Below, in pieces: positions 2,455-50,640 of a stretch of 64,000 nucleotides of DNA. The position numbers were made by a program, and so were the translations under genes. Position 1 is the first letter of the stretch, and every line of letters starts with the position of its first letter. Source of the stretch: a virus. The notes under the pieces are model-generated. The model made no database searches. It had not been told where the DNA came from and saw only the letters and a list, made by a program, of their open reading frames with translations. The stretch lies in IMG/VR virus record IMGVR_UViG_3300048925_000129. One strand, given 5' to 3'.

Positions 2455-3381
2455 TTAAAATTTAATAAAACCTTGGTTTACATTTAGGACGAACATTCCC
2501 AGCTTATGGAAATTTCTTGTCACCCCTATTCTGTCATCCAAAACTCCAACAACGTTGAATCTTGGTAGCAAGTCTCTTAATACTATTTCTTCTTTGACAA
2601 TACTGTCATTTCTTTGGTCTTTGGCTTTTCTCATGTAGATTTCAGAGTCTGTCATCCACAGGTTTTTATCTTTCAACCACTGAGTTGTTGTGTCCTTACA
2701 TGAATCCTGCCTACCTGATACAAACACTATCTTGAAACCATCTTTATGAAGAGCTCTGATAATATGTCCTACCTCTTTGATCTCAGTATCCAAGTGGAGT
2801 TTTGAGTCGTCAAAAATGTCTCTATCTCCTTTCAAAGCAACTGTTCCATCAATGTCTACAATGTAGGTATCTGGAAGAGAAGTATTGAATTTTACTTGTG
2901 GAGCTGTTTGAGGATAGTAAAGCTGCTGTCCATGCATTGATTTCTTAAGCTTCAGATACTCGTTATAGTGCTTCTCAATATAGGTAGGAACTGTAGCCAG
3001 ATTGTTTCTTTTTACAACTCTTTCCTGAGCCTCTTTCAAAGTAACATCACAGAATACTAATTCAATGTCAGCCAAATGGTTGTACTTAAACAAAATCTCA
3101 TCAATGTATTTCTTTTGAAGATGGGTGTTGTCAATTACAATGTTCTTTCCTTTATGTAAAGCATTGTAGATAGTATCTTCAATAGTTTCAGAAACTAAAT
3201 CCTCACATGCTCTGATGTCTTTTCTGTTGTAATAAGTTTGATCTGATTGACTAACTCCAAACAACATTGTTCTGGCATCATCTCTGTTAACTCTGATTGT
3301 ATTTTTGTCTTTTAGTAATGGAGCTGAGAATGTTGTTTTTCCTGCTCCAGATATACCGATTAAAACGGTGATTATACTCAT
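2455..3381 (-). CDS. pseT: polynucleotide 5'-kinase / 3'-phosphatase (T4 PseT-like)
   Basis: P-loop GISGAGKTT, NRDD; HAD DIDGT, SGR, DDR. Confidence 0.93.
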   Translation of the reverse strand: MSIITVLIGISGAGKTTFSAPLLKDKNTIRVNRDDARTMLFGVSQSDQTYYNRKDIRACEDLVSETIEDTIYNALHKGKNIVIDNTHLQKKYIDEILFKYNHLADIELVFCDVTLKEAQERVVKRNNLATVPTYIEKHYNEYLKLKKSMHGQQLYYPQTAPQVKFNTSLPDTYIVDIDGTVALKGDRDIFDDSKLHLDTEIKEVGHIIRALHKDGFKIVFVSGRQDSCKDTTTQWLKDKNLWMTDSEIYMRKAKDQRNDSIVKEEIVLRDLLPRFNVVGVLDDRIGVTRNFHKLGMFVLNVNQGFIKF

Positions 3382-5221: not shown

Positions 5222-5515
5222 CTAAATTTTACCGTTTTTAAGGATTAAAATGTTTCCGTCTCGAACCCATTTGAGTTCATATTTACCTGTGACTATAACA
5301 TAATCATTTGTTGTCCAGTCTCCTTCTCCATGACCACCTCTGGAAGTATGACTTCCTGCTGCTCTGAATATTCCTGTAACATCCTGACTTTTGTTATAAA
5401 CCAGTTTACCTTCCAAATCTTTTGGGGAGTAGTCTGTTCTACCGTTTGTTTGTCTCACGGTAGGAATTAGTTTGTCTCCCCAAGTTGTTTCAATTTTAAA
5501 ACTTTGTTCCTGCAT
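5222..5515 (-). CDS. hypothetical protein
   Basis: ORF in operon. Confidence 0.55.
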   Translation of the reverse strand: MQEQSFKIETTWGDKLIPTVRQTNGRTDYSPKDLEGKLVYNKSQDVTGIFRAAGSHTSRGGHGEGDWTTNDYVIVTGKYELKWVRDGNILILKNGKI

Positions 5516-6638
5516 GTACTGTGTCTAATCTAAATTGTAATAAAAGATCTTTCATTCTGTCTATACTAACTTCCTCTGGAAGATCTACTGTAATGTAGTT
5601 TCCTTTGATAATATGAAACCTGTGTTCTGCTTGTTTCATCAAATCATCATAGTTGTACTCTCCTGCTCTAATAGCTCGAAGAAACTCTACGTTATCTGAT
5701 TTCACTTTAAGACCTTTTCCTGTGGAAATGTTGTCAGCCATATCTAAAAGTCTGAAGAGGTGAGACATGTTTTTCAGATCGACACCCTGTCCTGCCTTTT
5801 GATTAGCATTAAATCTCTCCTCATTTCTCTCAGCTTCCCACTCCCAATACTCCTTGTGATCCTTACAATGAACTTGGAAACCATCTAAGTTGTAATACAT
5901 AGTGATTGCCTCGAAATTTGCTGCCAATTCTTTTGGAATAGAAGATAATCTCAGATTGACTGAATTCTCATCTTTAATCAATCCTCTGAACTGGTACTTG
6001 TTTTCGTTGTCAACATATAGACCATGAAGCCCTTTACCTACTGGAAGATCAACCAATCCACATGTATCCAAATTGATGTTCAACTGGTTTGCCCATGTTT
6101 TAAGTGGAATTGAATTATGACCTGAAATAATGTAACAGAAGTCTAAGATTGACTTTCTCTCCTTTGGTTGAGGATTATTCATTTTCTTGTTTAATCCTGT
6201 GGCTTTCTTGATCTGAGAGTCTGCATAACCTAAGATGGTTTTTTCAGTAAGTGTTGTGATCCAAGGTTTTGGGTCATCAAACACATGCATAGAAGGATCT
6301 TTATAGATGATACAGTTTTCTGGAATATCCAAAGCCTCAATCATGTTAGGATTATTCTTTGCCAGGAGTTCCATGAAATTCTGGATCTCAAACCCAACTA
6401 CATCATCTCCACCAATCTTCATATCCTTCTTGTAGTTATTCTTTAAGATCTCGTTAACTGGCTGCTTGTACACAAAGGTGATATCCACATCTGATTGTGG
6501 AGTGTTTGTTCCGTACATATGGCTACCTCTTACGAATGCCAATAGAATTTTAATGTTTCTGGACTTCTCAATCTGAGGAATAAGCTCTCTGAAGTTTTCT
6601 TTCTCTGTTTCAAAATCCTGTGCTTTTAAGTGTGCCAT
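5496..6638 (-). CDS. DNA Pol-beta superfamily nucleotidyltransferase (NrdC.11/YcgL/RlaP-like)
   Basis: RGSHMYGTNTPQSDVD, NPN, KNMSHLFRLL, AIRAG motifs. Confidence 0.85.
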   Translation of the reverse strand: MAHLKAQDFETEKENFRELIPQIEKSRNIKILLAFVRGSHMYGTNTPQSDVDITFVYKQPVNEILKNNYKKDMKIGGDDVVGFEIQNFMELLAKNNPNMIEALDIPENCIIYKDPSMHVFDDPKPWITTLTEKTILGYADSQIKKATGLNKKMNNPQPKERKSILDFCYIISGHNSIPLKTWANQLNINLDTCGLVDLPVGKGLHGLYVDNENKYQFRGLIKDENSVNLRLSSIPKELAANFEAITMYYNLDGFQVHCKDHKEYWEWEAERNEERFNANQKAGQGVDLKNMSHLFRLLDMADNISTGKGLKVKSDNVEFLRAIRAGEYNYDDLMKQAEHRFHIIKGNYITVDLPEEVSIDRMKDLLLQFRLDTVHAGTKF

Positions 6639-10121: not shown

Positions 10122-10865
10122 TTATTTTCTTTTTTTAGTTGTCGGTTCTAACCACATGTTCTCACCGAATATGTATTTTAATACAGAGATATTTGTCAAT
10201 TTCTCTAGATCACTTAGTAATCTAAGTGTCTTTATAGTGTCATGTTTAAACATCTTATAAACCTCTTCTCTGATTCTTTCTTCAGAAACTACATTTATAA
10301 ACTTCACCCACATCTCTTGATCTTTAAGAATCACTCGTTCAATAGAAGCATCCATTGTGAAATTCTTTGTGATAGAAAATCTAAGAGCTCTTAACATCCT
10401 TAAAGGATCATCGTTGAAAGAGGTTTGAGCCGAGATGGGACATCTTAAAATGCCCTTCCTTAAATCTGCCTGACCTCCAAATGGGTCAATCAATAGTCCA
10501 TCTTCATCCTCAGCAATGGCATTACAGGTGAAATCTCTTCTGAGCTGGTCTGCATATAAATCTCCCATCTCCACTATAGGAATTCTACTTTCTGGGTTAG
10601 GGTAACTTTCTTTCCTTGCCATTACATAATCAACATCTTCATCATTAAACTTACCTCTGATAGTAAAACAATCAGGTTTTGTTATATGTATTTTAACCCC
10701 CATTTCTAACAAGCATTTTTCCATCCTTAAAAAGTAATTTTCAGGAGTGACATTTTTATCAATTTCTTGAAATACAAATACATAATCTATGTCTTTAGAT
10801 TTAACTCCCATTAACTTATCTCTAACACACCCACCAATCTTGTATAATTTAAATTTGTCTTTCAT
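10122..10865 (-). CDS. cca: tRNA nucleotidyltransferase (CCA-adding, class II head domain)
   Basis: GGCVRD, KDID, RRDFTCNA, DDPLRMLRALRF, SEERI. Confidence 0.92.
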   Translation of the reverse strand: MKDKFKLYKIGGCVRDKLMGVKSKDIDYVFVFQEIDKNVTPENYFLRMEKCLLEMGVKIHITKPDCFTIRGKFNDEDVDYVMARKESYPNPESRIPIVEMGDLYADQLRRDFTCNAIAEDEDGLLIDPFGGQADLRKGILRCPISAQTSFNDDPLRMLRALRFSITKNFTMDASIERVILKDQEMWVKFINVVSEERIREEVYKMFKHDTIKTLRLLSDLEKLTNISVLKYIFGENMWLEPTTKKRK

Positions 10866-11671
10866 ATTTCTTTGTTTTTTCTTAATCTTTGAATAATTGT
10901 TCTAACACTACTATAAGGTAGTCCTAATAATTCGTGAATTTCTTTTTGGGTTTTTTCTTCTTTAAATAGATTCTTTATTTTTATAATTACCTCATCTGAA
11001 ACGTTTCTTCTAGTAAGGGTTTGAAGATATTCTTTAAACTCTAAAAATTTACTTTTTTTTCTATTAAGGGAAAAATCATACTCATTATTAAACAACAAAG
11101 AAATTAGTTTCTCTATCTGTTTATTTCCTCTTATTTCTAGCATAGCAGAATTTATAGAGTCTTGATTCCTCAACCTAATTTTAGAAGATTTTATTTTTAG
11201 ACTTAATAAGTATTGTTTTATTAATTCCAATATTGAAATATTTGAAGAAAAACAAATTGTGTAACCTTTATTTGAATCTCCATATATAGAACCATCTCCA
11301 TCAAAAAACCCTCTTAGCATATCGTTAAAATACTCTTGTGGAATATCAGGTAGATTTGTAGATAAGTAAGTTTTATTTTGAACTACTCCCAATTCTATTA
11401 TCTTATTGATAAGTCTTTTTGATGTAATACTTAATAAAGAATAAGACATATTGTTTATTACTTTAGTACTAATTACTCCAGAATAATTTACTTCTTGTTT
11501 TATAAATTCTAGTACTTCAATATCTTTTTTACTTAAACATATTGTTAAATTTCCTTTTGCTTTATTTATAGAACCATCAGCATAAATAAAACCTAAAATG
11601 TAAGCTTTATTAACTGAGTCAATAATATCAAAATAATTTTCATTCAATGTGTATTTTCTTGGTCTTGCCAT
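10862..11671 (-). mobile_element. free-standing double-motif LAGLIDADG homing endonuclease
   Basis: YILGFIYADGS and LRGFFDGDGS motifs, C-terminal HTH. Confidence 0.92.
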
Positions 11672-15617: not shown

Positions 15618-16922
15618 TTATTCTCCATCAGAAACTCCTTGTTCAAGTTCTTTGGATTCCCCCTCAATAAACTTAGGAGATTTTAGTTTGAAGATCTCAT
15701 CTGTTTCAACTAATCTGATACAGATTCCCTCATCTACTTTACAGTCATCGTAGGACTTGTCTAAATATTTCTGTTTTAGGTAATCTAATAAATGGTCAGG
15801 GCTCGTTGATCCTAGGTCTTCAATGAATGGAGGTACTATCTCTCTGACCTTACCATTAAAGTACTCATCAACATATTTGATTCCATACTTATCACAGTAT
15901 CTCTTAACTGCCTCCCATGAGAACTCATAAACTACACCATCTGGATTGGTATAGGTAATCCTATACACAAAGATTTCGTAGTCAAATCCATAAGTAAAAT
16001 TATCTCCCTGAACACCTTTTCCTACAATCTCACCATAAATAGTGATCCCTTTTTCAAGATTTTGCCTGTGCATTTCCATTGCTCTCTTCCAAATGTTGTC
16101 AGAATAGAAACTTGGAGTGTGAGATTGCCAACCTATTTTCTCAGCTTCAACTCCTTTAGGGAGTCTTGATTTTGGTTTACCAGATGAGTGTATGTATCCC
16201 CATTGAGTTTTAGGTAGTGGAGTGATGTATTTGTCAATCAGTTTCTCAAACCAATTTAGCTCTTTTTTCACCAATACATGGCTCAGGATTAGTGAAGATC
16301 CATGATATTTTCTAGTAACAACAAATCTTGTATCACGGTCTTCAAACTTGTCTAGGTTTCTGGCAAAGTGTGCAGTATCAGAATGGAATCTGAATTGATT
16401 ATCCAGTAACAGGTCTTTCAATCTGTTTTCTTTAGGCTGCTTCTCACCTTTTGGTAATCCTGATTGCTTAACTGGTGGAACATACTTCTGACAAATTAAA
16501 AAGTCATCAAAGTGAGTAAAGACATCCCCTGTCTTTAAGAATCCAGCAGGATAAAGTCCTTCTTCATTTAGATAGTTTAAGGCAGTAAGTGGGAGTAGCA
16601 TACCATCAGAGATAGTATCTCTCAATTTAATAGCCTTAACCAACCTTCTTTTAGCAGAAATATAACCTCTTTGATCTGAATCTTTGTTAAGTTGACTCTC
16701 ATCATATAGGCTGTTATGATAGCAAAGTTCTTCTGCCAGTTGTGTACCTGCTACAAAGTAAAGCATTACATCTCCCTCTTTAACGTCTTTGGAGACAATG
16801 ACATTATTCCCAAATAACACTACTCTTTTGATGTTATCGGCATTTTTTATATCAAAAACTTGTCCAATTGTTACAACTGAACAAGGATAATTAAGTGAAT
16901 CTTCACTAACACTAAGTCTCAT
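15618..16922 (-). CDS. RNA ligase (DRB0094/Rnl5-like, N-terminal OB-fold)
   Basis: IKNADNI, ISDGMLLP; motif I RKYHGSS, IYGEIVG, EGICIR, FKLKS. Confidence 0.82.
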   Translation of the reverse strand: MRLSVSEDSLNYPCSVVTIGQVFDIKNADNIKRVVLFGNNVIVSKDVKEGDVMLYFVAGTQLAEELCYHNSLYDESQLNKDSDQRGYISAKRRLVKAIKLRDTISDGMLLPLTALNYLNEEGLYPAGFLKTGDVFTHFDDFLICQKYVPPVKQSGLPKGEKQPKENRLKDLLLDNQFRFHSDTAHFARNLDKFEDRDTRFVVTRKYHGSSLILSHVLVKKELNWFEKLIDKYITPLPKTQWGYIHSSGKPKSRLPKGVEAEKIGWQSHTPSFYSDNIWKRAMEMHRQNLEKGITIYGEIVGKGVQGDNFTYGFDYEIFVYRITYTNPDGVVYEFSWEAVKRYCDKYGIKYVDEYFNGKVREIVPPFIEDLGSTSPDHLLDYLKQKYLDKSYDDCKVDEGICIRLVETDEIFKLKSPKFIEGESKELEQGVSDGE

Positions 16923-36138: not shown

Positions 36139-36203
36139 TGCTTCGTATAAGGACTCGAACCTCACCTGCTAACTGCCGTGCTCCCAATTACACCATCACG
36201 AAA
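36139..36203 (-). ncRNA. tRNA-like RNA with collapsed anticodon arm
   Basis: D arm TGGTGTAATTGGGAGCAC, T arm GAGGTTCGAGTCCTT, 14 nt between them. Confidence 0.6.
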
Positions 36204-36374: not shown

Positions 36375-37194
36375 AAGCTACAGGTCTTGTTAGTTAATAT
36401 TCCACACCGAGTGCCTCAACCAAGGCTTTGGGAATCGAACCCTCTTCGTCTTTTTTCCAAATAAAAATGTTTTAAACTTTGTATTTGCTGTGTGTAGCTT
36501 TATCAAATTACCGTTTGATGTTAAAATTCCAATTTTTAGCTTTGTTTAATTTGCTGTAGGTAATTTTGTCAGATTGCATACTAAACGTGTGTTTGATTAA
36601 AATTCAAGTGTTTGTTTAATTTGCTGTTAGCAATCTTTTCAGAATAGTATGTTTGAGGATTTGAACCCCTTGAACTGTTTATGAGACAATTGTTTTAACC
36701 AAATTTTTTAGATTTGCTGTAACTATTCTTATCAAGTTTCTATTGTTTTTGGACTATTGCTCTACCAACTGAGCTACTGAAATCCTAAGACTCCAGAAGG
36801 GACTCGAACCCTTGACCCACAGTGTTACATTCCTAAATTTGCTGTTAGAAACTTTATCAAAACTCATTTTTTGTTTTATACGTTGTACTAACCACTATAC
36901 TATCTCCCAAATTTTTCTAGATTAACTTTGTTGGGAGAGGAGGAGTCGAACCTCCGTCTACGGCTCTGAATGCATAACTTTGTATTTGCTGTATGAGTTT
37001 TTATATATTCAGGTTACTTGGGGACGATAAAAGGTCCCGTTAAGTTAAGATTTAAGTCATTCTAGGACTTTCCTATACAATTTTACTTCTCACATACAGG
37101 ACCCGAAGTGTAGAGATGTCTGTGCTTTTGCATTCTACAGTTTCCGTTATTTGAATCAATTATAGTTGTGTGTTGTATTTGCTGATAGTAACCT
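36375..37194 (-). ncRNA. array of 7 Y-RNA-like (ACAGCAAA-stem) RNAs
   Basis: Units 36375-36500, 36505-36566, 36571-36636, 36641-36729, 36734-36854, 36859-37001, 37011-37194, each with own 7-9 bp terminal stem and conserved motif. Confidence 0.8.
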
Positions 37195-37206
37195 TATAAT
37201 AACACT

Positions 37207-37265
37207 GCAAAGATATGAAAACTTTTTGAGATATGCAAATCTTGCAGTGTTAAATTTATGTTAAA
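37207..37265 (-). promoter_or_regulatory. promoter for the RNA array
   Basis: TTTGCATAT..TATCTTTGC, TTTAACA x2. Confidence 0.8.
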
Positions 37266-37276
37266 GGATTTTCACC

Positions 37277-38953
37277 TTATAGAACTTCTACTCTTTGAAT
37301 CAGTTCCTGAGACAATGCCTCTCTCACTAATTCGGCTGCTGTTTTAATCTTGGTGTTAGTCAAGAATCCTACAGTGGTAGCAGAGTACCCACTGAAGTAG
37401 AATACGTTTTGAACGTCTCCGTAAGTTTCGAACTTCTCTCCAGTCCCTCTACCATAGTATCCTGACTGTAGGTTCCAAAGAACGATTACGAAGCTATCTA
37501 CATACTCTTTAGAGAACCCAGCTCTTCTCAAAGTTTCCTTTGCAGTTTCAACGTTAGTTTTACCTAATTGGCTTGGGTTAAATTCACTATCAGATATACA
37601 TAGGATTCCCGATGGGAAATCTTGTTCTGAAACTCCACTCTGTTTCAACCTAACGAATAGGTTAATTACTGATTGGAAGTTAGTACCCCCAATGTAAGAA
37701 GAGTGATCATTCTTCCATTTGTCTACTGGAGTTTGACCTTTCCAGGTATGCATCTGAGCATCAGAGTTGAACTCGATCCATGCATTTGCAAACTTACCAG
37801 TTAAGAACTCAGAGAAGTAAAGGGCAAGTGCTTTACCAATATCGTAGCAGCTCATCTTAGTTCCAGTAGCTACACTACTCATTGAACCAGATGTATCTCT
37901 TACAACAATTAGATTAGTCTGTCCAGATTCACCACCTTTTTGAACAAGAGTAGTAAACTGCTTGTTAATGGTTTCAACTTCATTAGGAGTAACTGATCTT
38001 CTAGACTGCTTACCTAGACCTTCGAATAACTCGTGAACGAATCCAGTATACTTCACCTCCTTAGTTTCTGGAGCCTTGATCCACTCTGCATACTTGTCAG
38101 AAAGTTTCTGGTTAAATAGGAACTTACCTTGAACAAGTTTTGAAAGAGCTCTACCATGAACTTTGTTGAAGTCAATTCTATCAAATTGCTTTGTAGAGAT
38201 TAGCTTCTGCCATTCATGAGCTGTACCAGAAGTTTTTAACTTTCTGTACTGCTTGTAAGTAGAACCTGCATTTTCTTTAGTACCAAACACAAGTGAGCAG
38301 ATCCACTTTGCAATCATTGTATCAGCCTGAGCTTCTACAGTTTTACAAGATGATTTAGCCTTGATTTGTGGCAAATACTTCTTAATTAAATCACTGGTGT
38401 TTGAATTTTCTAATCCTGAAAGGATAAGTTCACCAAACTTTTTCCAGTTTAATTTTCTTCCGTTCCAACCGTGATGAACAAGGTCATAAGAAAGCATCGT
38501 GAAGATATCTTTCCATGATCCTGCTGAGATCATCAATCCTACGTTAGCCCAGAAAGTTTTTTCATCCTTGAAGTGTAACCATAAGAATCTCATGATACCT
38601 TCATGTCTTAGCTCACCTCCTTTTTGTGATTCGGCAGTCATAGTACCATCTTGATACATTGTCTGTCTTGAGATCATTCTTAAGAAGATAGAGAAAGCTA
38701 CTGCATCCCACTTATCATCTGCCCATAACATTTCGGCATCTCTGGTGATATCCTGGAAAGATCTTGGTGCTTTGAATTTACCCATAACTCCGAACTGGTC
38801 AACTAATGTTGAACCTGTTGAGGAATATTTTAGGGCTCCGTTCCCTGATAGTGTTTCTGCTCCTTTCTTTAAAGATGCATTAACGAATGCAGATGTTGCT
38901 TGTGTGTTTTTTGGAGTTACCTCGAATAAACTTTTTTGTTTGCTGTCGAACAT
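37277..38953 (-). CDS. TROVE/Ro60-like helical plus vWA protein (DUF2828-like)
   Basis: NGA..YSSTG, GSWKD, C-terminal vWA VRDTSGSM, GGTNF, ISDSEFN, LWNL, SGYS. Confidence 0.8.
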   Translation of the reverse strand: MFDSKQKSLFEVTPKNTQATSAFVNASLKKGAETLSGNGALKYSSTGSTLVDQFGVMGKFKAPRSFQDITRDAEMLWADDKWDAVAFSIFLRMISRQTMYQDGTMTAESQKGGELRHEGIMRFLWLHFKDEKTFWANVGLMISAGSWKDIFTMLSYDLVHHGWNGRKLNWKKFGELILSGLENSNTSDLIKKYLPQIKAKSSCKTVEAQADTMIAKWICSLVFGTKENAGSTYKQYRKLKTSGTAHEWQKLISTKQFDRIDFNKVHGRALSKLVQGKFLFNQKLSDKYAEWIKAPETKEVKYTGFVHELFEGLGKQSRRSVTPNEVETINKQFTTLVQKGGESGQTNLIVVRDTSGSMSSVATGTKMSCYDIGKALALYFSEFLTGKFANAWIEFNSDAQMHTWKGQTPVDKWKNDHSSYIGGTNFQSVINLFVRLKQSGVSEQDFPSGILCISDSEFNPSQLGKTNVETAKETLRRAGFSKEYVDSFVIVLWNLQSGYYGRGTGEKFETYGDVQNVFYFSGYSATTVGFLTNTKIKTAAELVREALSQELIQRVEVL

Positions 38954-45935: not shown

Positions 45936-46013
45936 TGGTGGGTCCACTGGGAATCGAACCCAGTCCTACAGTTTTTCAGACTATCGTGCAGACCTTAATT
46001 ACACCTTAGACCC
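45936..46013 (-). tRNA. tRNA-Phe (GAA)
   Basis: Cloverleaf, CCA encoded. Confidence 0.88.
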
Positions 46014-49902: not shown

Positions 49903-50640
49903 TTATTTTACTTTGTCTATTTTATCTAATTCTTTTTGTATGTAAAACTTTGTGGATTTTGGGAAGTCAGCAGTTAAAGCCCACCTTGCATATGAAGGGT
50001 CTTTAATAACAGGTTGATCTTTACATTTACCCATAGCCCAACATATTTCTCCATCAATGTATTTTAGTTTACCTAGAGGATCTACAAGATCATCCTTAAT
50101 ACCAAATGCAAAATTAAAATCTGCTGAATGGATGTCTAGGTTATGTGTTTCTATTTGTGCTTTTAAAACCTCCATAGAAGCTTTACAATCGGCTAATGCT
50201 GAGTGTGCATCATCTAAGTCTTTTCCAGTATATTGTTTGTATAGATATGATAGATTTCTAGGCTTGAGGACGGACTCAATTACAAGAGTATCCAATGTCC
50301 TATATTCACTAATATCAAAAGGAAAATCACTTAACAAACATTTCTCCGCAAGTAAAGGTAAATCAAACCGTCTGATATTCTGTCCACAGATAATTTTTCC
50401 TTTAATGAGTTGTAAAACAGTTGGTATAACCTCATGAAAATAAGGCATATGTTCAACCATTTCATTTGTTATTCCATGAATTGCAGATACATCTTCTGGT
50501 ATTGGCTTGAAGGTCTTACAAAGAGTTCTGAATTCTTTTTCTATTTTAAAATCTTTGTCATAATTGACAACAGCTACCTCACAAATCTCGTCTAGAGTTA
50601 GGTTTAATCCTGTTGTCTCAAAATCTATTGTTGAAAACAT
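49903..50640 (-). CDS. DnaQ-like 3'-5' exonuclease
   Basis: IDFETTG, IHGIT, N..FD, AHSALAD. Confidence 0.92.
   Translation of the reverse strand: MFSTIDFETTGLNLTLDEICEVAVVNYDKDFKIEKEFRTLCKTFKPIPEDVSAIHGITNEMVEHMPYFHEVIPTVLQLIKGKIICGQNIRRFDLPLLAEKCLLSDFPFDISEYRTLDTLVIESVLKPRNLSYLYKQYTGKDLDDAHSALADCKASMEVLKAQIETHNLDIHSADFNFAFGIKDDLVDPLGKLKYIDGEICWAMGKCKDQPVIKDPSYARWALTADFPKSTKFYIQKELDKIDKVK

What the first reader, a model, noticed from the sequence alone, without database searches (positions are those of the whole stretch)
36734..37001. Two array units are circularly permuted tRNA mimics (YrlA architecture)
Seen: unit 36734-36854 reads ACTGT-GGGTC-[T arm AAGGGTTCGAGTCCCTT]-CTGGAGT-loop-ATTTCAG-[D arm TAGCTCAGTTGGTAGAGC]-A-ATAGT. 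Unit 36859-37001 has the same order with TCTCCCAA/TTGGGAGA closed by a 20 nt loop. The T arm precedes the D arm, the acceptor stem is capped by a loop, and the anticodon stem leads into the motif stem. Known: this is the topology of bacterial YrlA RNAs, which supports the Ro/Y interpretation independently of the protein call.
Basis: partly seen in the sequence, partly recalled or inferred. Interest (0 to 1): 0.8.

Follow-up and report, generated by a model that had tools for sequence, protein, structure and literature searches.

The report
Phage tRNA-shaped Y-like RNAs beside Ro60-like gene
Two small RNA genes in a large phage encode tRNA bodies wired "inside out" (T arm, capped acceptor stem, D arm) on a shared RNA handle next to a Ro60-shaped protein gene, a variant of bacterial YrlA Y RNAs that also sits unannotated in FelixO1, Listeria P100 and mycobacteriophages.

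Summary
On the minus strand, units 36735-36853 (U1) and 36860-37000 (U2) read: closing stem, ACAGCAAAU, 3' anticodon-stem strand, variable loop, T arm, loop-capped 7-8 bp acceptor stem, UA, D arm, A26, 5' anticodon-stem strand, closing stem.

A covariance model built only from other phages' units ranks U1 and U2 first in the window (62 and 50 bits; next hit 26). Across 29 modules, 91% of pair cells are paired, with heavy compensatory change, and the tRNA tertiary nucleotides are near-invariant.

- Rfam YrlA scores 39 bits against a cut-off of 69.
- The GNCGAA motif is replaced by an ACAGCAA handle.
- T and D stems covary freely instead of being conserved.

The same handle accompanies this protein family in five distant phage lineages, including 251 FelixO1-like records, where it is almost always unannotated.

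Most likely these are Y-RNA-like partners of the Ro60-like protein, presenting a tRNA elbow and acceptor to tRNA-handling enzymes, in a phage that encodes Pnkp, RNA ligase and a CCA-adding enzyme.

Earlier first-reader notes in this scan flagged this same array on this genome.

The parts
36735..36853 (-). Unit U1: the handle (8-bp closing stem plus ACAGCAAAU) carrying a class-I-like permuted tRNA module. It has a 5-nt variable loop, a 7-8 bp acceptor closed by a 4-6 nt cap, and a GCUC/GAGC D stem.
   Evidence: Sequence; MFE fold; Rfam YrlA 39.4 bits over the full model; model R1 62.1 bits, E 1.7e-14.
36753..36823 (-). tRNA-like core of U1, from the 3' anticodon-stem strand to the 5' anticodon-stem strand.
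   Evidence: R1 alignment covers model positions 1-83 with no non-canonical pair flagged.
36860..37000 (-). Unit U2: the handle carrying a permuted tRNA module with an expanded 14-16 nt variable region and an 8-bp acceptor closed by a 20-nt cap. The cap begins with discriminator A then CAA, like this phage's tRNA 3' trailers.
   Evidence: R1 50.4 bits, E 2.2e-11; trailer comparison.
36879..36974 (-). tRNA-like core of U2.
   Evidence: Scanner. The R1 alignment covers 36879-36964.
37277..38953 (-). 558-aa Ro60-fold protein: a TROVE-like helical ring plus a vWA domain with MIDAS motif DxSxS (D353, S355, S357). Pfam recognises only DUF7788; it also matches PHROG 850 'RNA-binding protein'.
37208..37239 (-). 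Bacteroidota-type promoter (TTTG-N20-TAnnTTTG) directly upstream of the first array unit.
   Evidence: 18 matches in the window against 3.5 expected, with an extended consensus shared by other minus-strand promoters. It is conserved in L001 and L002.
37012..37193 (-). Array unit 1: handle UCAGCAAAU with a ~165-nt insert of unknown structure.
   Evidence: conserved in L001 and L002.
36642..36728 (-). Array unit 4. The handle stem stands in for an acceptor stem, and the cargo is a non-permuted tRNA body: an anticodon arm with a CUCAUAA loop, plus a T arm.
   Evidence: Fold; weak Rfam tRNA hit over model positions 6-65.
36376..36636 (-). Array units 5-7. Two are short A-rich units (36571-36636 and 36505-36566). 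One has a T-arm-like hairpin (36376-36499).
   Evidence: Rfam Dicty_Class_I_RNA sub-threshold hits.

Best explanation
U1 and U2 are two of seven small RNAs transcribed from a dedicated promoter just downstream of a Ro60-fold protein gene. Every unit shares a 'handle': a 6-8 bp closing stem whose sequence varies freely, ACAGCAAAU immediately 3' of its 5' strand, an A-rich edge, and a UGAUAAG spacer. The handle is the probable binding site of the Ro60-like protein (inferred from co-occurrence).

In U1 and U2 the cargo is a complete tRNA body minus the anticodon loop. It is attached to the handle through its anticodon stem, so the elbow and the acceptor stem point outwards, as in bacterial YrlA Y RNAs.

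The RNP most likely uses this tRNA-shaped module to engage proteins that recognise the tRNA elbow or acceptor: RNase P, CCA-adding or modification enzymes, repair enzymes, or host tRNA-directed nucleases. That would tether them to, or gate, the Ro60-like ring as part of the phage's tRNA maintenance or counter-defence programme.

Shown here: the anatomy, covariation, tertiary-nucleotide conservation, the Ro60 fold, genomic coupling across distant phages, and the promoter motif.

Inferred: RNA-protein binding, processing into single units, and the identity of the effector.

Long-capped units such as U2 may additionally be opened by RNase P and given CCA, as shown for M. smegmatis YrlA. Short-capped U1 probably stays closed.
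For: Anatomy and specificity:
- Anatomy and folds.
- Independent model R1 ranks the two units first in the window. It finds 29 modules in related loci, all on the protein's strand.
- In complete relatives, hits of 36 bits or more lie beside the Ro-like gene, with one uninspected exception.

Covariation:
- 91.2% of pair cells are paired, against 58% in shuffles.
- Covariation score 0.893, against 0.228 for shuffles and 0.12-0.22 for slid controls.
- T arm 99% paired; acceptor 96.5% paired, with compensatory changes at all 7 pairs.

tRNA tertiary nucleotides: G53-C61, T54, U55, C56, A58, G18 and G10-C25 are invariant; A14 and A21 are invariant where present (28/28); U8 is 28/29; R15 is 28/28; Y48 is 25/27.

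Protein: Ro60 fold, and Ro60 is the best PDB profile hit.

The handle co-occurs with the protein family in:
- Bacteroidota-type phages: 33 of 60 loci have chained arrays.
- Leptolyngbya phage.
- Mycobacterium phage Nicholasp3.
- FelixO1-like phages.
- Listeria phage P100.

Other support:
- Rfam YrlA aligns over its full model.
- The window encodes Pnkp, RNA ligase, an RlaP nucleotidyltransferase and a CCA-adding-family enzyme on the same strand.
- Published precedents: YrlA is bound by Rsr, modified by TruB and DusA, and the 7-bp-acceptor form is cut by RNase P and receives CCA (PMC4201824). A FelixO1-like family member, Bas63 gp130, counters the Ppl defence system (10.1101/2024.10.10.617714).
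Against: - No expression, binding or processing data exist for these RNAs.
- Rfam YrlA is below its gathering score for U1 and gives no hit for U2.
- The canonical Ro-contact motif GNCGAA is absent in 0 of 21 units, so binding by the Ro60-like protein rests on genomic coupling alone.
- 27 of 60 related loci show no chained array within 1.8 kb. Some of these are contig ends, some hold single unchained units that my filter misses, and one clade from a single sample seems to lack it nearby.
- MFE z-scores of single units are modest, -1.2 to -2.1.
- The outer anticodon-stem pairs are only about 50-60% paired in the model alignment.
Confidence: 0.77

Rival explanations
1. Stand-alone decoys or sponges. 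The tRNA-shaped modules act without the Ro60-like protein, titrating a host factor that attacks or senses tRNA acceptor or elbow regions. In this view the handle serves only for processing or stability.
For: - Other units in the same arrays expose anticodon loops instead: window 36642-36728, and L050 and L023. This looks like a panel of tRNA baits.
- The phage carries a T4-style anticodon-nuclease repair kit.
- A family member counters a defence system (10.1101/2024.10.10.617714).
Against: The handle, not the cargo, is what travels with the protein gene across five distant phage lineages. Most units carry no tRNA-like cargo at all: 95 of 164. A pure decoy would not need a conserved single-stranded motif next to a covarying stem.
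Confidence: 0.12
2. Precursors of functional translation components. The units would be permuted or split tRNA genes, cut at the cap by RNase P and 3' processing, given CCA, and then charged as two-piece tRNAs or tRNA halves.
For: - The acceptor stems are 7 bp.
- Many cap loops begin with discriminator then C-A-A or CCA, like this phage's real tRNA trailers.
- The phage encodes a CCA-adding-family enzyme.
- M. smegmatis YrlA is processed in this way (PMC4201824).
Against: - There is no anticodon loop. The anticodon stem runs through 8-12 nt internal loops into the handle, so decoding is impossible.
- U1, L040, L061 and L039 have 3-6 nt caps that leave no leader or trailer.
- The units are not copies of any tRNA in the window.
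- No BHB-type splice motif or archaeal-type endonuclease context was seen.
Confidence: 0.07
3. Artefact: junctions of two adjacent tRNA genes ('dimeric tRNA' false positives), decayed tRNA pseudogenes, or chance.
For: The region lies in a tRNA cluster. Chen et al. warn about such false positives, and weak R1 and YrlA hits in this window are indeed tRNA junctions.
Against: - The acceptor strands pair with each other, with compensatory changes at all 7 positions.
- No flanking tRNA halves exist, and ARAGORN and Rfam find no tRNA there.
- Shuffles give 0-1 hits.
- The module is conserved down to 24% protein identity of the neighbouring gene.
Confidence: 0.02

Closest known systems
YrlA Y RNAs of bacteria and some phages (Rfam RF02553; Chen et al. 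2014, PMC4201824; Wang et al. 2018, 10.1101/312249)
   Same: - Encoded beside, and on the same strand as, a Ro60-fold gene.
- Modular: a protein-binding stem formed by the 5' and 3' ends, plus a tRNA-like effector module.
- Module order: variable loop, T arm, loop-capped acceptor stem, UA, D arm, with the anticodon stem leading into the binding stem.
- All elbow and core tertiary nucleotides are conserved.
- Several Y RNAs per locus.
   Different: - The handle motif is ACAGCAAAU instead of GNCGAAN0-1G.
- The partner is DUF2828/DUF7788, not Pfam TROVE.
- T and D stem sequences covary freely, whereas YrlA's are highly conserved.
- Acceptors are a tRNA-like 7-8 bp, whereas most YrlA acceptors are shorter.
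- Class-II-like versions with long variable arms exist.
- The units sit in arrays of up to about 7-12 with a fixed UGAUAAG spacer.
- Rfam score is 36-39 bits against a cut-off of 69.
Thermus phage phiLo Ro60 with Yrl1 and Yrl2 (PMC12135203)
   Different: The phiLo RNAs were picked by a CGAA motif and lie upstream of the gene. No tRNA-like module or ACAGCAA handle is reported for them.
Bas63 gp130 (FelixO1-like phage; PhageMaP preprint 10.1101/2024.10.10.617714)
   Different: The candidate partner found here is not an annotated tRNA. It is an unannotated handle-plus-permuted-tRNA unit in a gap of the tRNA cluster (L006 4531-4657), conserved in 251 records. I did not look at Bas63 itself.
Dictyostelium Class I RNAs (Rfam RF01414; PMC7919456)
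   Same: A short terminal stem of free sequence, an unpaired (C)UUACAGCAA motif immediately 3' of the 5' strand, a variable A-rich interior, and CUG(U) after the 3' strand. Short phage units score up to 39.3 bits against a gathering score of 41.5.
   Different: Class I RNAs are eukaryotic Pol III transcripts reported as unique to dictyostelids, with no tRNA-like cargo. The known direct binder is the RRM protein Rnp1A/CIBP. All phage hits are below the gathering score.
Circularly permuted tRNA genes (Cyanidioschyzon merolae type) and two-piece tmRNA
   Same: The 3' half (T arm) is encoded before the 5' half (D arm).
   Different: Those RNAs mature into molecules with a free acceptor end and a working anticodon or tag. 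Here the acceptor is capped and there is no anticodon loop.

Membership tests
YrlA (Rfam RF02553) | Scores at or above the curated gathering score of 69 bits. | tested here: not met
   U1 scores 39.4 bits over model positions 1-114 and U2 gets no hit at E<=10. Relatives score 24.6-37.9 bits. No YrlA hit at gathering level in the window or in 20 loci.
YrlA sensu Chen et al. 2014 | tRNA-like domain in the order V, T arm, closed acceptor stem-loop, D arm, with the anticodon stem joined to the Ro-binding module. | tested here: met
   Covariation over 29 modules is.
YrlA sensu Chen et al. 2014 | Conserved tRNA tertiary-interaction nucleotides: T-loop UUCRA, D-loop GG, U8/A9 linker, last V-loop pyrimidine. 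| tested here: met
   T54, U55, C56, A58, G53-C61 and G18 are 29/29; A14 is 28/28; U8 is 28/29; Y48 is 25/27.
YrlA sensu Chen et al. 2014 | GNCGAAN0-1G motif near the 5' end (the putative Rsr contact). | tested here: not met
   Present in 0 of 21 units. ACAGCAA(A/C)U occupies that place.
YrlA sensu Chen et al. 2014 | Within 4 kb of a Ro60 orthologue and on the same strand. | tested here: met
   The units lie 280-540 nt downstream of ORF 37277-38953 on the same strand. The Ro60 fold is shown. By sequence the protein is DUF7788/DUF2828, not TROVE.
YrlA sensu Wang et al. 2018 | Highly conserved T-stem and D-stem sequences. | tested here: not met
   T-stem pairs show 3-6 pair types each, and D stems come in at least 3 types.
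Y RNA (functional class) | Bound by the Ro60 protein; carries tRNA-type modifications. | not testable with these tools
   Needs RIP or EMSA and modification mapping.
Ro60/TROVE protein family (the neighbouring gene) | HEAT-like helical ring plus a C-terminal vWA domain with MIDAS. | tested here: met
Ro60/TROVE protein family (the neighbouring gene) | Matches the Pfam TROVE domain by sequence. | tested here: not met
   Only PF25043 (DUF7788) at E<=0.01. Relatives add PF11443 (DUF2828). The profile against PDB reaches Ro60 only at E 1.4e-3, in the vWA part.
tRNA (RF00005) / decoding tRNA | Cloverleaf with a free acceptor end and an anticodon loop. | tested here: not met
   No ARAGORN or Rfam tRNA call on U1 or U2. 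The acceptor is capped and there is no anticodon loop.
Dictyostelium Class I RNA (RF01414) | Scores at or above the gathering score of 41.5 bits. This applies to the short array units, not to U1 or U2. | tested here: not met
   Best score is 39.3 bits (L004 4234-4291). Window units score 20.7-28.8 bits. None reach gathering level.

The most novel reading that the evidence does not exclude
The 'short stem + ACAGCAA + CUG' handle may be an ancient, cross-domain ligand of the DUF2828/DUF7788 branch of Ro60-fold proteins. It would be used by phages of Bacteroidota, cyanobacteria, Actinobacteria, Firmicutes and Enterobacteria to display interchangeable cargoes, including tRNA bodies tethered by either end.

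The abundant Class I RNAs of dictyostelid amoebae have no assigned mechanism and share the same stem, motif and 3' end. They could be the eukaryotic counterpart, that is, Y-RNA-like partners of a DUF2828-type protein. [quoted passage not shown]
Probability: 0.27. Interest if true: 0.9.

Novelty: new variant of a known kind. Interest (0 to 1): 0.7.

Why it matters
**Assigns partners to an unknown protein family.** It gives a large 'domain of unknown function' phage family both a fold (Ro60) and a candidate cognate RNA ligand. The family has over 2,000 detectable relatives and 574 phage records, including FelixO1, Listeria P100/A511-like and cluster-E-like mycobacteriophages.

**Extends YrlA-type mimicry.** tRNA mimicry of the YrlA type is not tied to the canonical Rsr/GNCGAA system. 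It has been re-used on a different handle, in multi-unit arrays, and with class-I-like and class-II-like tRNA shapes.

**Makes a published phenotype testable.** Bas63 gp130 counters the Ppl defence. The unannotated handle-plus-tRNA-mimic RNA about 1 kb downstream in FelixO1-like phages is an obvious candidate co-factor.

**Links to phage tRNA repair.** It places a Ro60/Y-like RNP alongside a phage-encoded tRNA repair and maturation kit (Pnkp, RNA ligase, CCA enzyme). That supports the idea that Ro-type RNPs serve tRNA quality control or counter-defence during infection.

Tried and rejected
- **Rfam at gathering level** gives only tRNAs in the window and no YrlA or Class I hit in 20 loci.
- **PDB sequence search** with the single protein found nothing.
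- **No whole genome** is held for the window.
A1 was used instead.
- **The sigma-70 promoter and terminator scan** was no better than shuffles. A Bacteroidota-type pattern was informative instead.
- **A PF11443 search of two complete relatives** hit nothing in them or in any control genome, so it was uninformative.
- **No RtcB** in three complete relatives.
- **'Dimeric tRNA' junction** explanation rejected.
- **'Recent copy of a phage tRNA'** rejected: the best summed local scores are 34/65 and 26/74.
- **Identity of Dictyostelium DDB_G0281243** could not be established from the held papers or supplements.
- **The amoebozoan-labelled homologue P0245** has its nearest relatives in Bacteroidota chromosomes. 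It is therefore weak evidence for eukaryotic membership of the family.
- **The Protein Atlas** returned only viral DUF2828/DUF7788 clusters.
- **MAFFT alignment of whole units** blurred the D, anticodon and closing stems. A model-based alignment was used instead.
Full report
**1. Observation**

The window carries about 24 tRNA genes on the minus strand.

Each unit reads, 5' to 3':
- an 8-bp closing stem;
- ACAGCAAAU;
- a short linker;
- the 3' strand of an anticodon-type stem;
- a variable loop;
- a canonical T arm;
- a 7-8 bp acceptor stem whose two strands are joined by a loop;
- UA;
- a canonical D arm;
- A26;
- the 5' strand of the anticodon-type stem;
- an A-rich linker;
- the 3' strand of the closing stem;
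- UGAUAA.

MFE folding recovers the T arm, the capped acceptor hairpin, the D arm and the closing stem in both units.

**2. More than chance**

I wrote an explicit scanner for: T arm with a UUCRA loop, then a 7-bp hairpin, then 2 nt, then a D arm with GG.
- It finds 0-1 matches in each of 20 shuffles of 361 kb (both strands).
- It finds 26 on the protein-gene strand of related loci and 3 on the opposite strand.

I then built a covariance model (R1) from seven units of other phages only, leaving out both window units.
- In the 64-kb window it ranks U1 first (62.1 bits, E 1.7e-14) and U2 second (50.4 bits, E 2.2e-11).
- The third hit has 26 bits, and that tier consists of tRNA-to-tRNA junctions or partial tRNAs.
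- In complete genomes of relatives (157-212 kb), hits of 36 bits or more lie beside the Ro-like gene. The one exception is a 39.8-bit hit in G003 that I did not inspect.

**3. Conservation and covariation**

The 558-aa ORF upstream (37277-38953, minus strand) has relatives in 54 viral contigs. In 33 of 60 loci I find chains of units spaced by exactly 6-7 nt, usually just downstream of the gene. Of 164 chained units:
- 21 carry the permuted tRNA module;
- 48 carry only a T-loop-like hairpin;
- 95 carry neither.

R1 finds 29 modules at E<=1e-5, all on the gene strand. Results on that alignment:

| Measure | Observed | Shuffled | Slid controls |
|---|---|---|---|
| Pair cells forming standard pairs | 91.2% | 58.0% | 40-50% |
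| Covariation score | 0.893 | 0.228 | 0.12-0.22 |

| Helix | Cells paired | Note |
|---|---|---|
| T arm | 99.3% | |
| Acceptor hairpin | 96.5% | compensatory changes at all seven pairs |
| D arm | 91.4% | |
| Anticodon-type stem | 75% | inner three pairs good; outer two poor, partly an alignment effect of variable-loop length |

RNAalifold on a plain MAFFT alignment independently predicts the T arm and the capped acceptor, with compensatory changes at 11 of 12 pairs.

The universal tRNA tertiary nucleotides are conserved:
- G53-C61, T54, U55, C56, A58, G18 and G10-C25 are invariant.
- A14 and A21 are invariant where present (28/28).
- U8 is 28/29, R15 is 28/28 and Y48 is 25/27.

A real L-shape with an elbow is therefore under selection. 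Because R1's alignment is fitted to the structure, the percentage paired leans in its favour. The covariation measures, the slid controls and the independent RNAalifold result do not depend on that.

**4. The neighbouring protein**

By sequence:
- Pfam sees only DUF7788.
- PHROGs calls it 'RNA-binding protein'.
- Relatives add DUF2828.
- PDB sequence search finds nothing.
- A 62-sequence profile reaches Ro60 only weakly, in the vWA/MIDAS region (E 1.4e-3).

By structure:
- The AlphaFold model is confident (pLDDT 90.5, pTM 0.88).
- Foldseek's 13 best matches are all Ro60/TROVE structures over the full length.
- The MIDAS DxSxS motif is invariant.

The gene is therefore a Ro60-fold protein of a branch that sequence models do not connect to TROVE. 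Cluster-E-like mycobacteriophage proteins annotated 'Ro-like RNA binding protein' belong to this same DUF2828/DUF7788 family.

**5. The handle**

Across 158 distinct chained units the shared part is as follows:
- a 6-8 bp stem, with 138 different sequences;
- (U/A)(U/A)A-CAGCAA-A-U;
- A-rich edges;
- UGAUAA(G) after the stem.

Part of that consensus was imposed by my parser: CAG[CT]AA, and a loose tail pattern. The flanking preferences and the exact spacing were not imposed.

The same handle lies next to the family's gene in four other distant lineages:
- **Leptolyngbya phage Lbo-JY46:** five units.
- **Mycobacterium phage Nicholasp3:** three units. The middle one has a UACAGUAAU handle and a permuted tRNA module (R1 28 bits with filters off).
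- **FelixO1-like coliphage:** a single complete unit in an unannotated gap of the tRNA cluster, L006 4531-4657, with a perfect 7-bp capped acceptor. It is conserved in 251 phage records, including FelixO1 itself, and is almost never annotated.
- **Listeria phage P100:** three units just upstream of gp165.

This coupling, which holds down to about 24% protein identity, is the main argument that the handle is the protein's binding site. It remains an inference.

**6. Comparison with YrlA**

Chen et al. 2014 (PMC4201824) define YrlA by:
- proximity to Ro60 on the same strand;
- a 5' GNCGAAN0-1G motif;
- a T / acceptor-stem-loop / D module with tRNA tertiary nucleotides.

Wang et al. 2018 (10.1101/312249) describe most YrlA RNAs as circularly permuted tRNAs with closed acceptor stems. 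They also stress that T- and D-stem sequences are highly conserved.

Here the topology, the tertiary nucleotides and the genomic position are met. The following are not:
- the GNCGAA motif (0 of 21 units);
- conserved T and D stem sequences;
- the Rfam threshold (39.4 bits against 69; U2 gets no hit).

So the units work like YrlA and share its architecture, but they form a separate variant.

Further differences:
- The acceptors are a tRNA-like 7-8 bp.
- There are two flavours. One is class-I-like, with a GCUC...GAGC D arm and a 5-nt variable loop, as in U1. The other is class-II-like, with a 3-bp D stem, an 11-nt D loop and a hairpin-forming variable arm, as in L020, L016 and L060. U2 has an expanded but unstructured variable region.
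- The RNAs are organised in arrays.

**7. Other cargo geometry**

Some units tether a non-permuted tRNA body by its acceptor end and expose an anticodon loop:
- window 36642-36728;
- L050 2936-3049, which ARAGORN calls tRNA-Tyr GUA inside the handle;
- L023 4790-4901.

U1 and U2 do the opposite: they expose the acceptor and elbow. The handle therefore presents tRNA shapes from either end.

**8. Context and mechanism**

A Bacteroidota-type promoter (TTTG-N20-TAnnTTTG) lies at 37208-37239, directly before the first unit. Its extended consensus is shared with the phage's other promoters (18 matches against 3.5 expected). I searched for this pattern because earlier notes of this scan suggested a Bacteroidota-type host.

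On the same strand the window encodes:
- Pnkp (2455-3381);
- an RlaP 'RNA repair' nucleotidyltransferase (5496-6638);
- a CCA-adding-family enzyme (10122-10865);
- an RNA ligase (15618-16922);
- an RNase T-like exonuclease (49903-50640);
- a Pth2-like ORF (a weak match just under Pfam's cut-off) and a YqeY-like protein beside the array.

Complete relatives all have the CCA-family enzyme, and none has RtcB.

This phage's tRNA genes lack an encoded CCA, and most run discriminator-CAA. The long cap loops start the same way: U2 has A-CAA, and the consensus over 29 modules is A-C-A. Some caps in other phages start with discriminator-CCA. Long-capped units may therefore be opened by RNase P and 3' processing and receive CCA, as shown for the 7-bp-acceptor YrlA of M. 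smegmatis (PMC4201824). U1, with its 4-6 nt cap, probably stays closed.

My best reading is a Ro60-like RNP in which the handle binds the protein and the tRNA-shaped module recruits or gates a tRNA-recognising enzyme. This would serve phage tRNA quality control, repair or counter-defence. One family member, Bas63 gp130, experimentally counters the Ppl defence (10.1101/2024.10.10.617714). A Thermus phage Ro60 with its Y-like RNAs binds host PNPase (PMC12135203).

**9. Rivals**

- **tRNA junction artefact or chance:** effectively excluded.
- **Maturation into decoding tRNAs:** excluded by the missing anticodon loop.
- **Processing at the cap:** remains possible, and is compatible with the main reading.
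- **Protein-independent decoys:** cannot be excluded without experiments. They explain the conserved handle poorly.

**10. Side lead**

Rfam's Dictyostelium Class I RNA model hits the short units repeatedly: up to 39.3 bits against a gathering score of 41.5, and 20.7-30.9 bits elsewhere.

Class I RNAs are defined by a short terminal stem of free sequence, an unpaired 11-nt motif containing UUACAGCAA next to the 5' strand, a variable interior and a CUGU 3' end (PMC7919456). This is the phage handle, and the P100 units even end in CUGU.

One of four proteins pulled down with Class I RNA DdR-21 is the uncharacterised DDB_G0281243 (10.1101/2020.04.05.026054). I could not determine its family.

A homologue labelled as amoebozoan (Rhizamoeba transcriptome, fused to a 2H phosphoesterase) has its nearest relatives in Bacteroidota chromosomes. 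It is therefore weak evidence for a eukaryotic branch. The link is unproven but directly testable.

**11. Literature and novelty**

I found no paper in the held library that describes DUF2828/DUF7788 proteins together with ACAGCAA-handle RNAs or arrays. YrlA-type tRNA mimicry next to Ro60 is known, including in 22 phages (PMC4201824), so this is a new variant of a known kind.

Earlier first-reader notes of this scan had flagged the array and these two units on this same genome.

**12. Limits**

- There is no expression or binding evidence.
- E-values from R1 are rough, because its calibration was short.
- My array parser imposes part of the handle pattern and misses isolated units.
- 27 of 60 loci showed no chained array within 1.8 kb.

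Noticed in passing
L006 4531-4657 (Escherichia phage vB_EfeM_pEP20); also AF320576.1 24577-24714 (Salmonella phage FelixO1): A complete handle-plus-permuted-tRNA unit lies in an unannotated gap of the tRNA cluster, about 1 kb downstream of the DUF2828 gene. It has stem GACCGUU/AACGGUC, handle UACAGCAAAC, a T arm, a perfect 7-bp capped acceptor and a D arm. It is conserved in 251 phage records and almost never annotated. It is a candidate RNA partner of the Bas63 gp130-type anti-Ppl protein.
   Followed up: partly
L004 4234-4291; window 36571-36636 and 36505-36566 (minus strand): Short array units resemble Dictyostelium Class I RNAs (Rfam RF01414): 39.3 bits against a gathering score of 41.5 in the Leptolyngbya phage, and 20.7-28.8 bits in the window. 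The stem, the ACAGCAA motif and the CUG tail are the same grammar. An unknown protein, DDB_G0281243, was pulled down with a Class I RNA in published work.
   Followed up: partly
L007 2158-2422 (Listeria phage P100): Three handle units (UAACAGCAAUU or ACACAGCAAAU, with 3' ...CUGU) lie immediately upstream of the DUF2828 gene gp165. A ROOL-like RNA at 965-1516 (86 bits, below its gathering score of 99.1) lies about 650 nt further upstream.
   Followed up: partly
L005 3034-3300 (Mycobacterium phage Nicholasp3): Three handle units follow the 'Ro-like RNA binding protein' gene, which is DUF2828+DUF7788 in Pfam. The middle unit has a UACAGUAAU handle and a permuted tRNA module.
   Followed up: partly
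window 36642-36728 (minus strand); L050 2936-3049; L023 4790-4901: These array units carry a non-permuted tRNA body tethered to the handle by the acceptor end, exposing an anticodon loop: CAU in the window, GUA in L050 (which ARAGORN calls tRNA-Tyr) and GAU in L023. This is the opposite geometry to U1 and U2.
   Followed up: partly
window 36143-36203 (minus strand): A tRNA-like element lies between tRNA-Glu and the CUA-anticodon tRNA. It has an acceptor-like stem, a D arm (GUGU...GCAC) and a T arm, but only a 2-bp stub where the anticodon arm should be. ARAGORN and Rfam tRNA do not call it. It is R1's third-best hit, through its T arm.
   Followed up: no
window 2455-3381, 5496-6638, 10122-10865, 10862-11671, 15618-16922, 49903-50640 (all minus strand): A T4-style RNA repair and tRNA maturation kit: Pnkp, an RlaP-family nucleotidyltransferase, a CCA-adding-family enzyme (with a LAGLIDADG endonuclease ORF immediately upstream and overlapping its start), an RNA ligase and an RNase T-like exonuclease. 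A second, stand-alone vWA protein lies at 1581-2438.
   Followed up: partly
window 37012-37193 (minus strand): The first array unit has a UCAGCAAAU handle and a ~165-nt insert. The insert is conserved in the 93% and 74% relatives (L001, L002), but it has no recognised family and no tRNA-like part.
   Followed up: no
L043 4722-5081: A phage-encoded tmRNA gene (72 bits, with a tag peptide called by ARAGORN) lies about 120 nt beyond the last unit of a 10-unit handle array.
   Followed up: no
P0245 (EukProt, Rhizamoeba saxonica transcript, 843 aa): A DUF2828+DUF7788 protein fused to a 2H phosphoesterase / 2'-5' RNA ligase domain (PF13563). Its closest relatives, at about 50% identity, are chromosomal 'DUF2828 family proteins' of Bacteroidota. 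The family is therefore also cellular, and in one case physically linked to an RNA-end-healing domain.
   Followed up: partly
window 45939-46013 (minus strand): Rfam calls a tRNA here (54.5 bits) that ARAGORN did not report.
   Followed up: no
L025-L033, L038, L046, L049, L054, L055, L058 (sample 3300045988): A clade of relatives at 55-56% protein identity shows no chained handle array within 1.8 kb on either side of the gene. The RNAs may lie elsewhere, may be single units, or may be absent.
   Followed up: no
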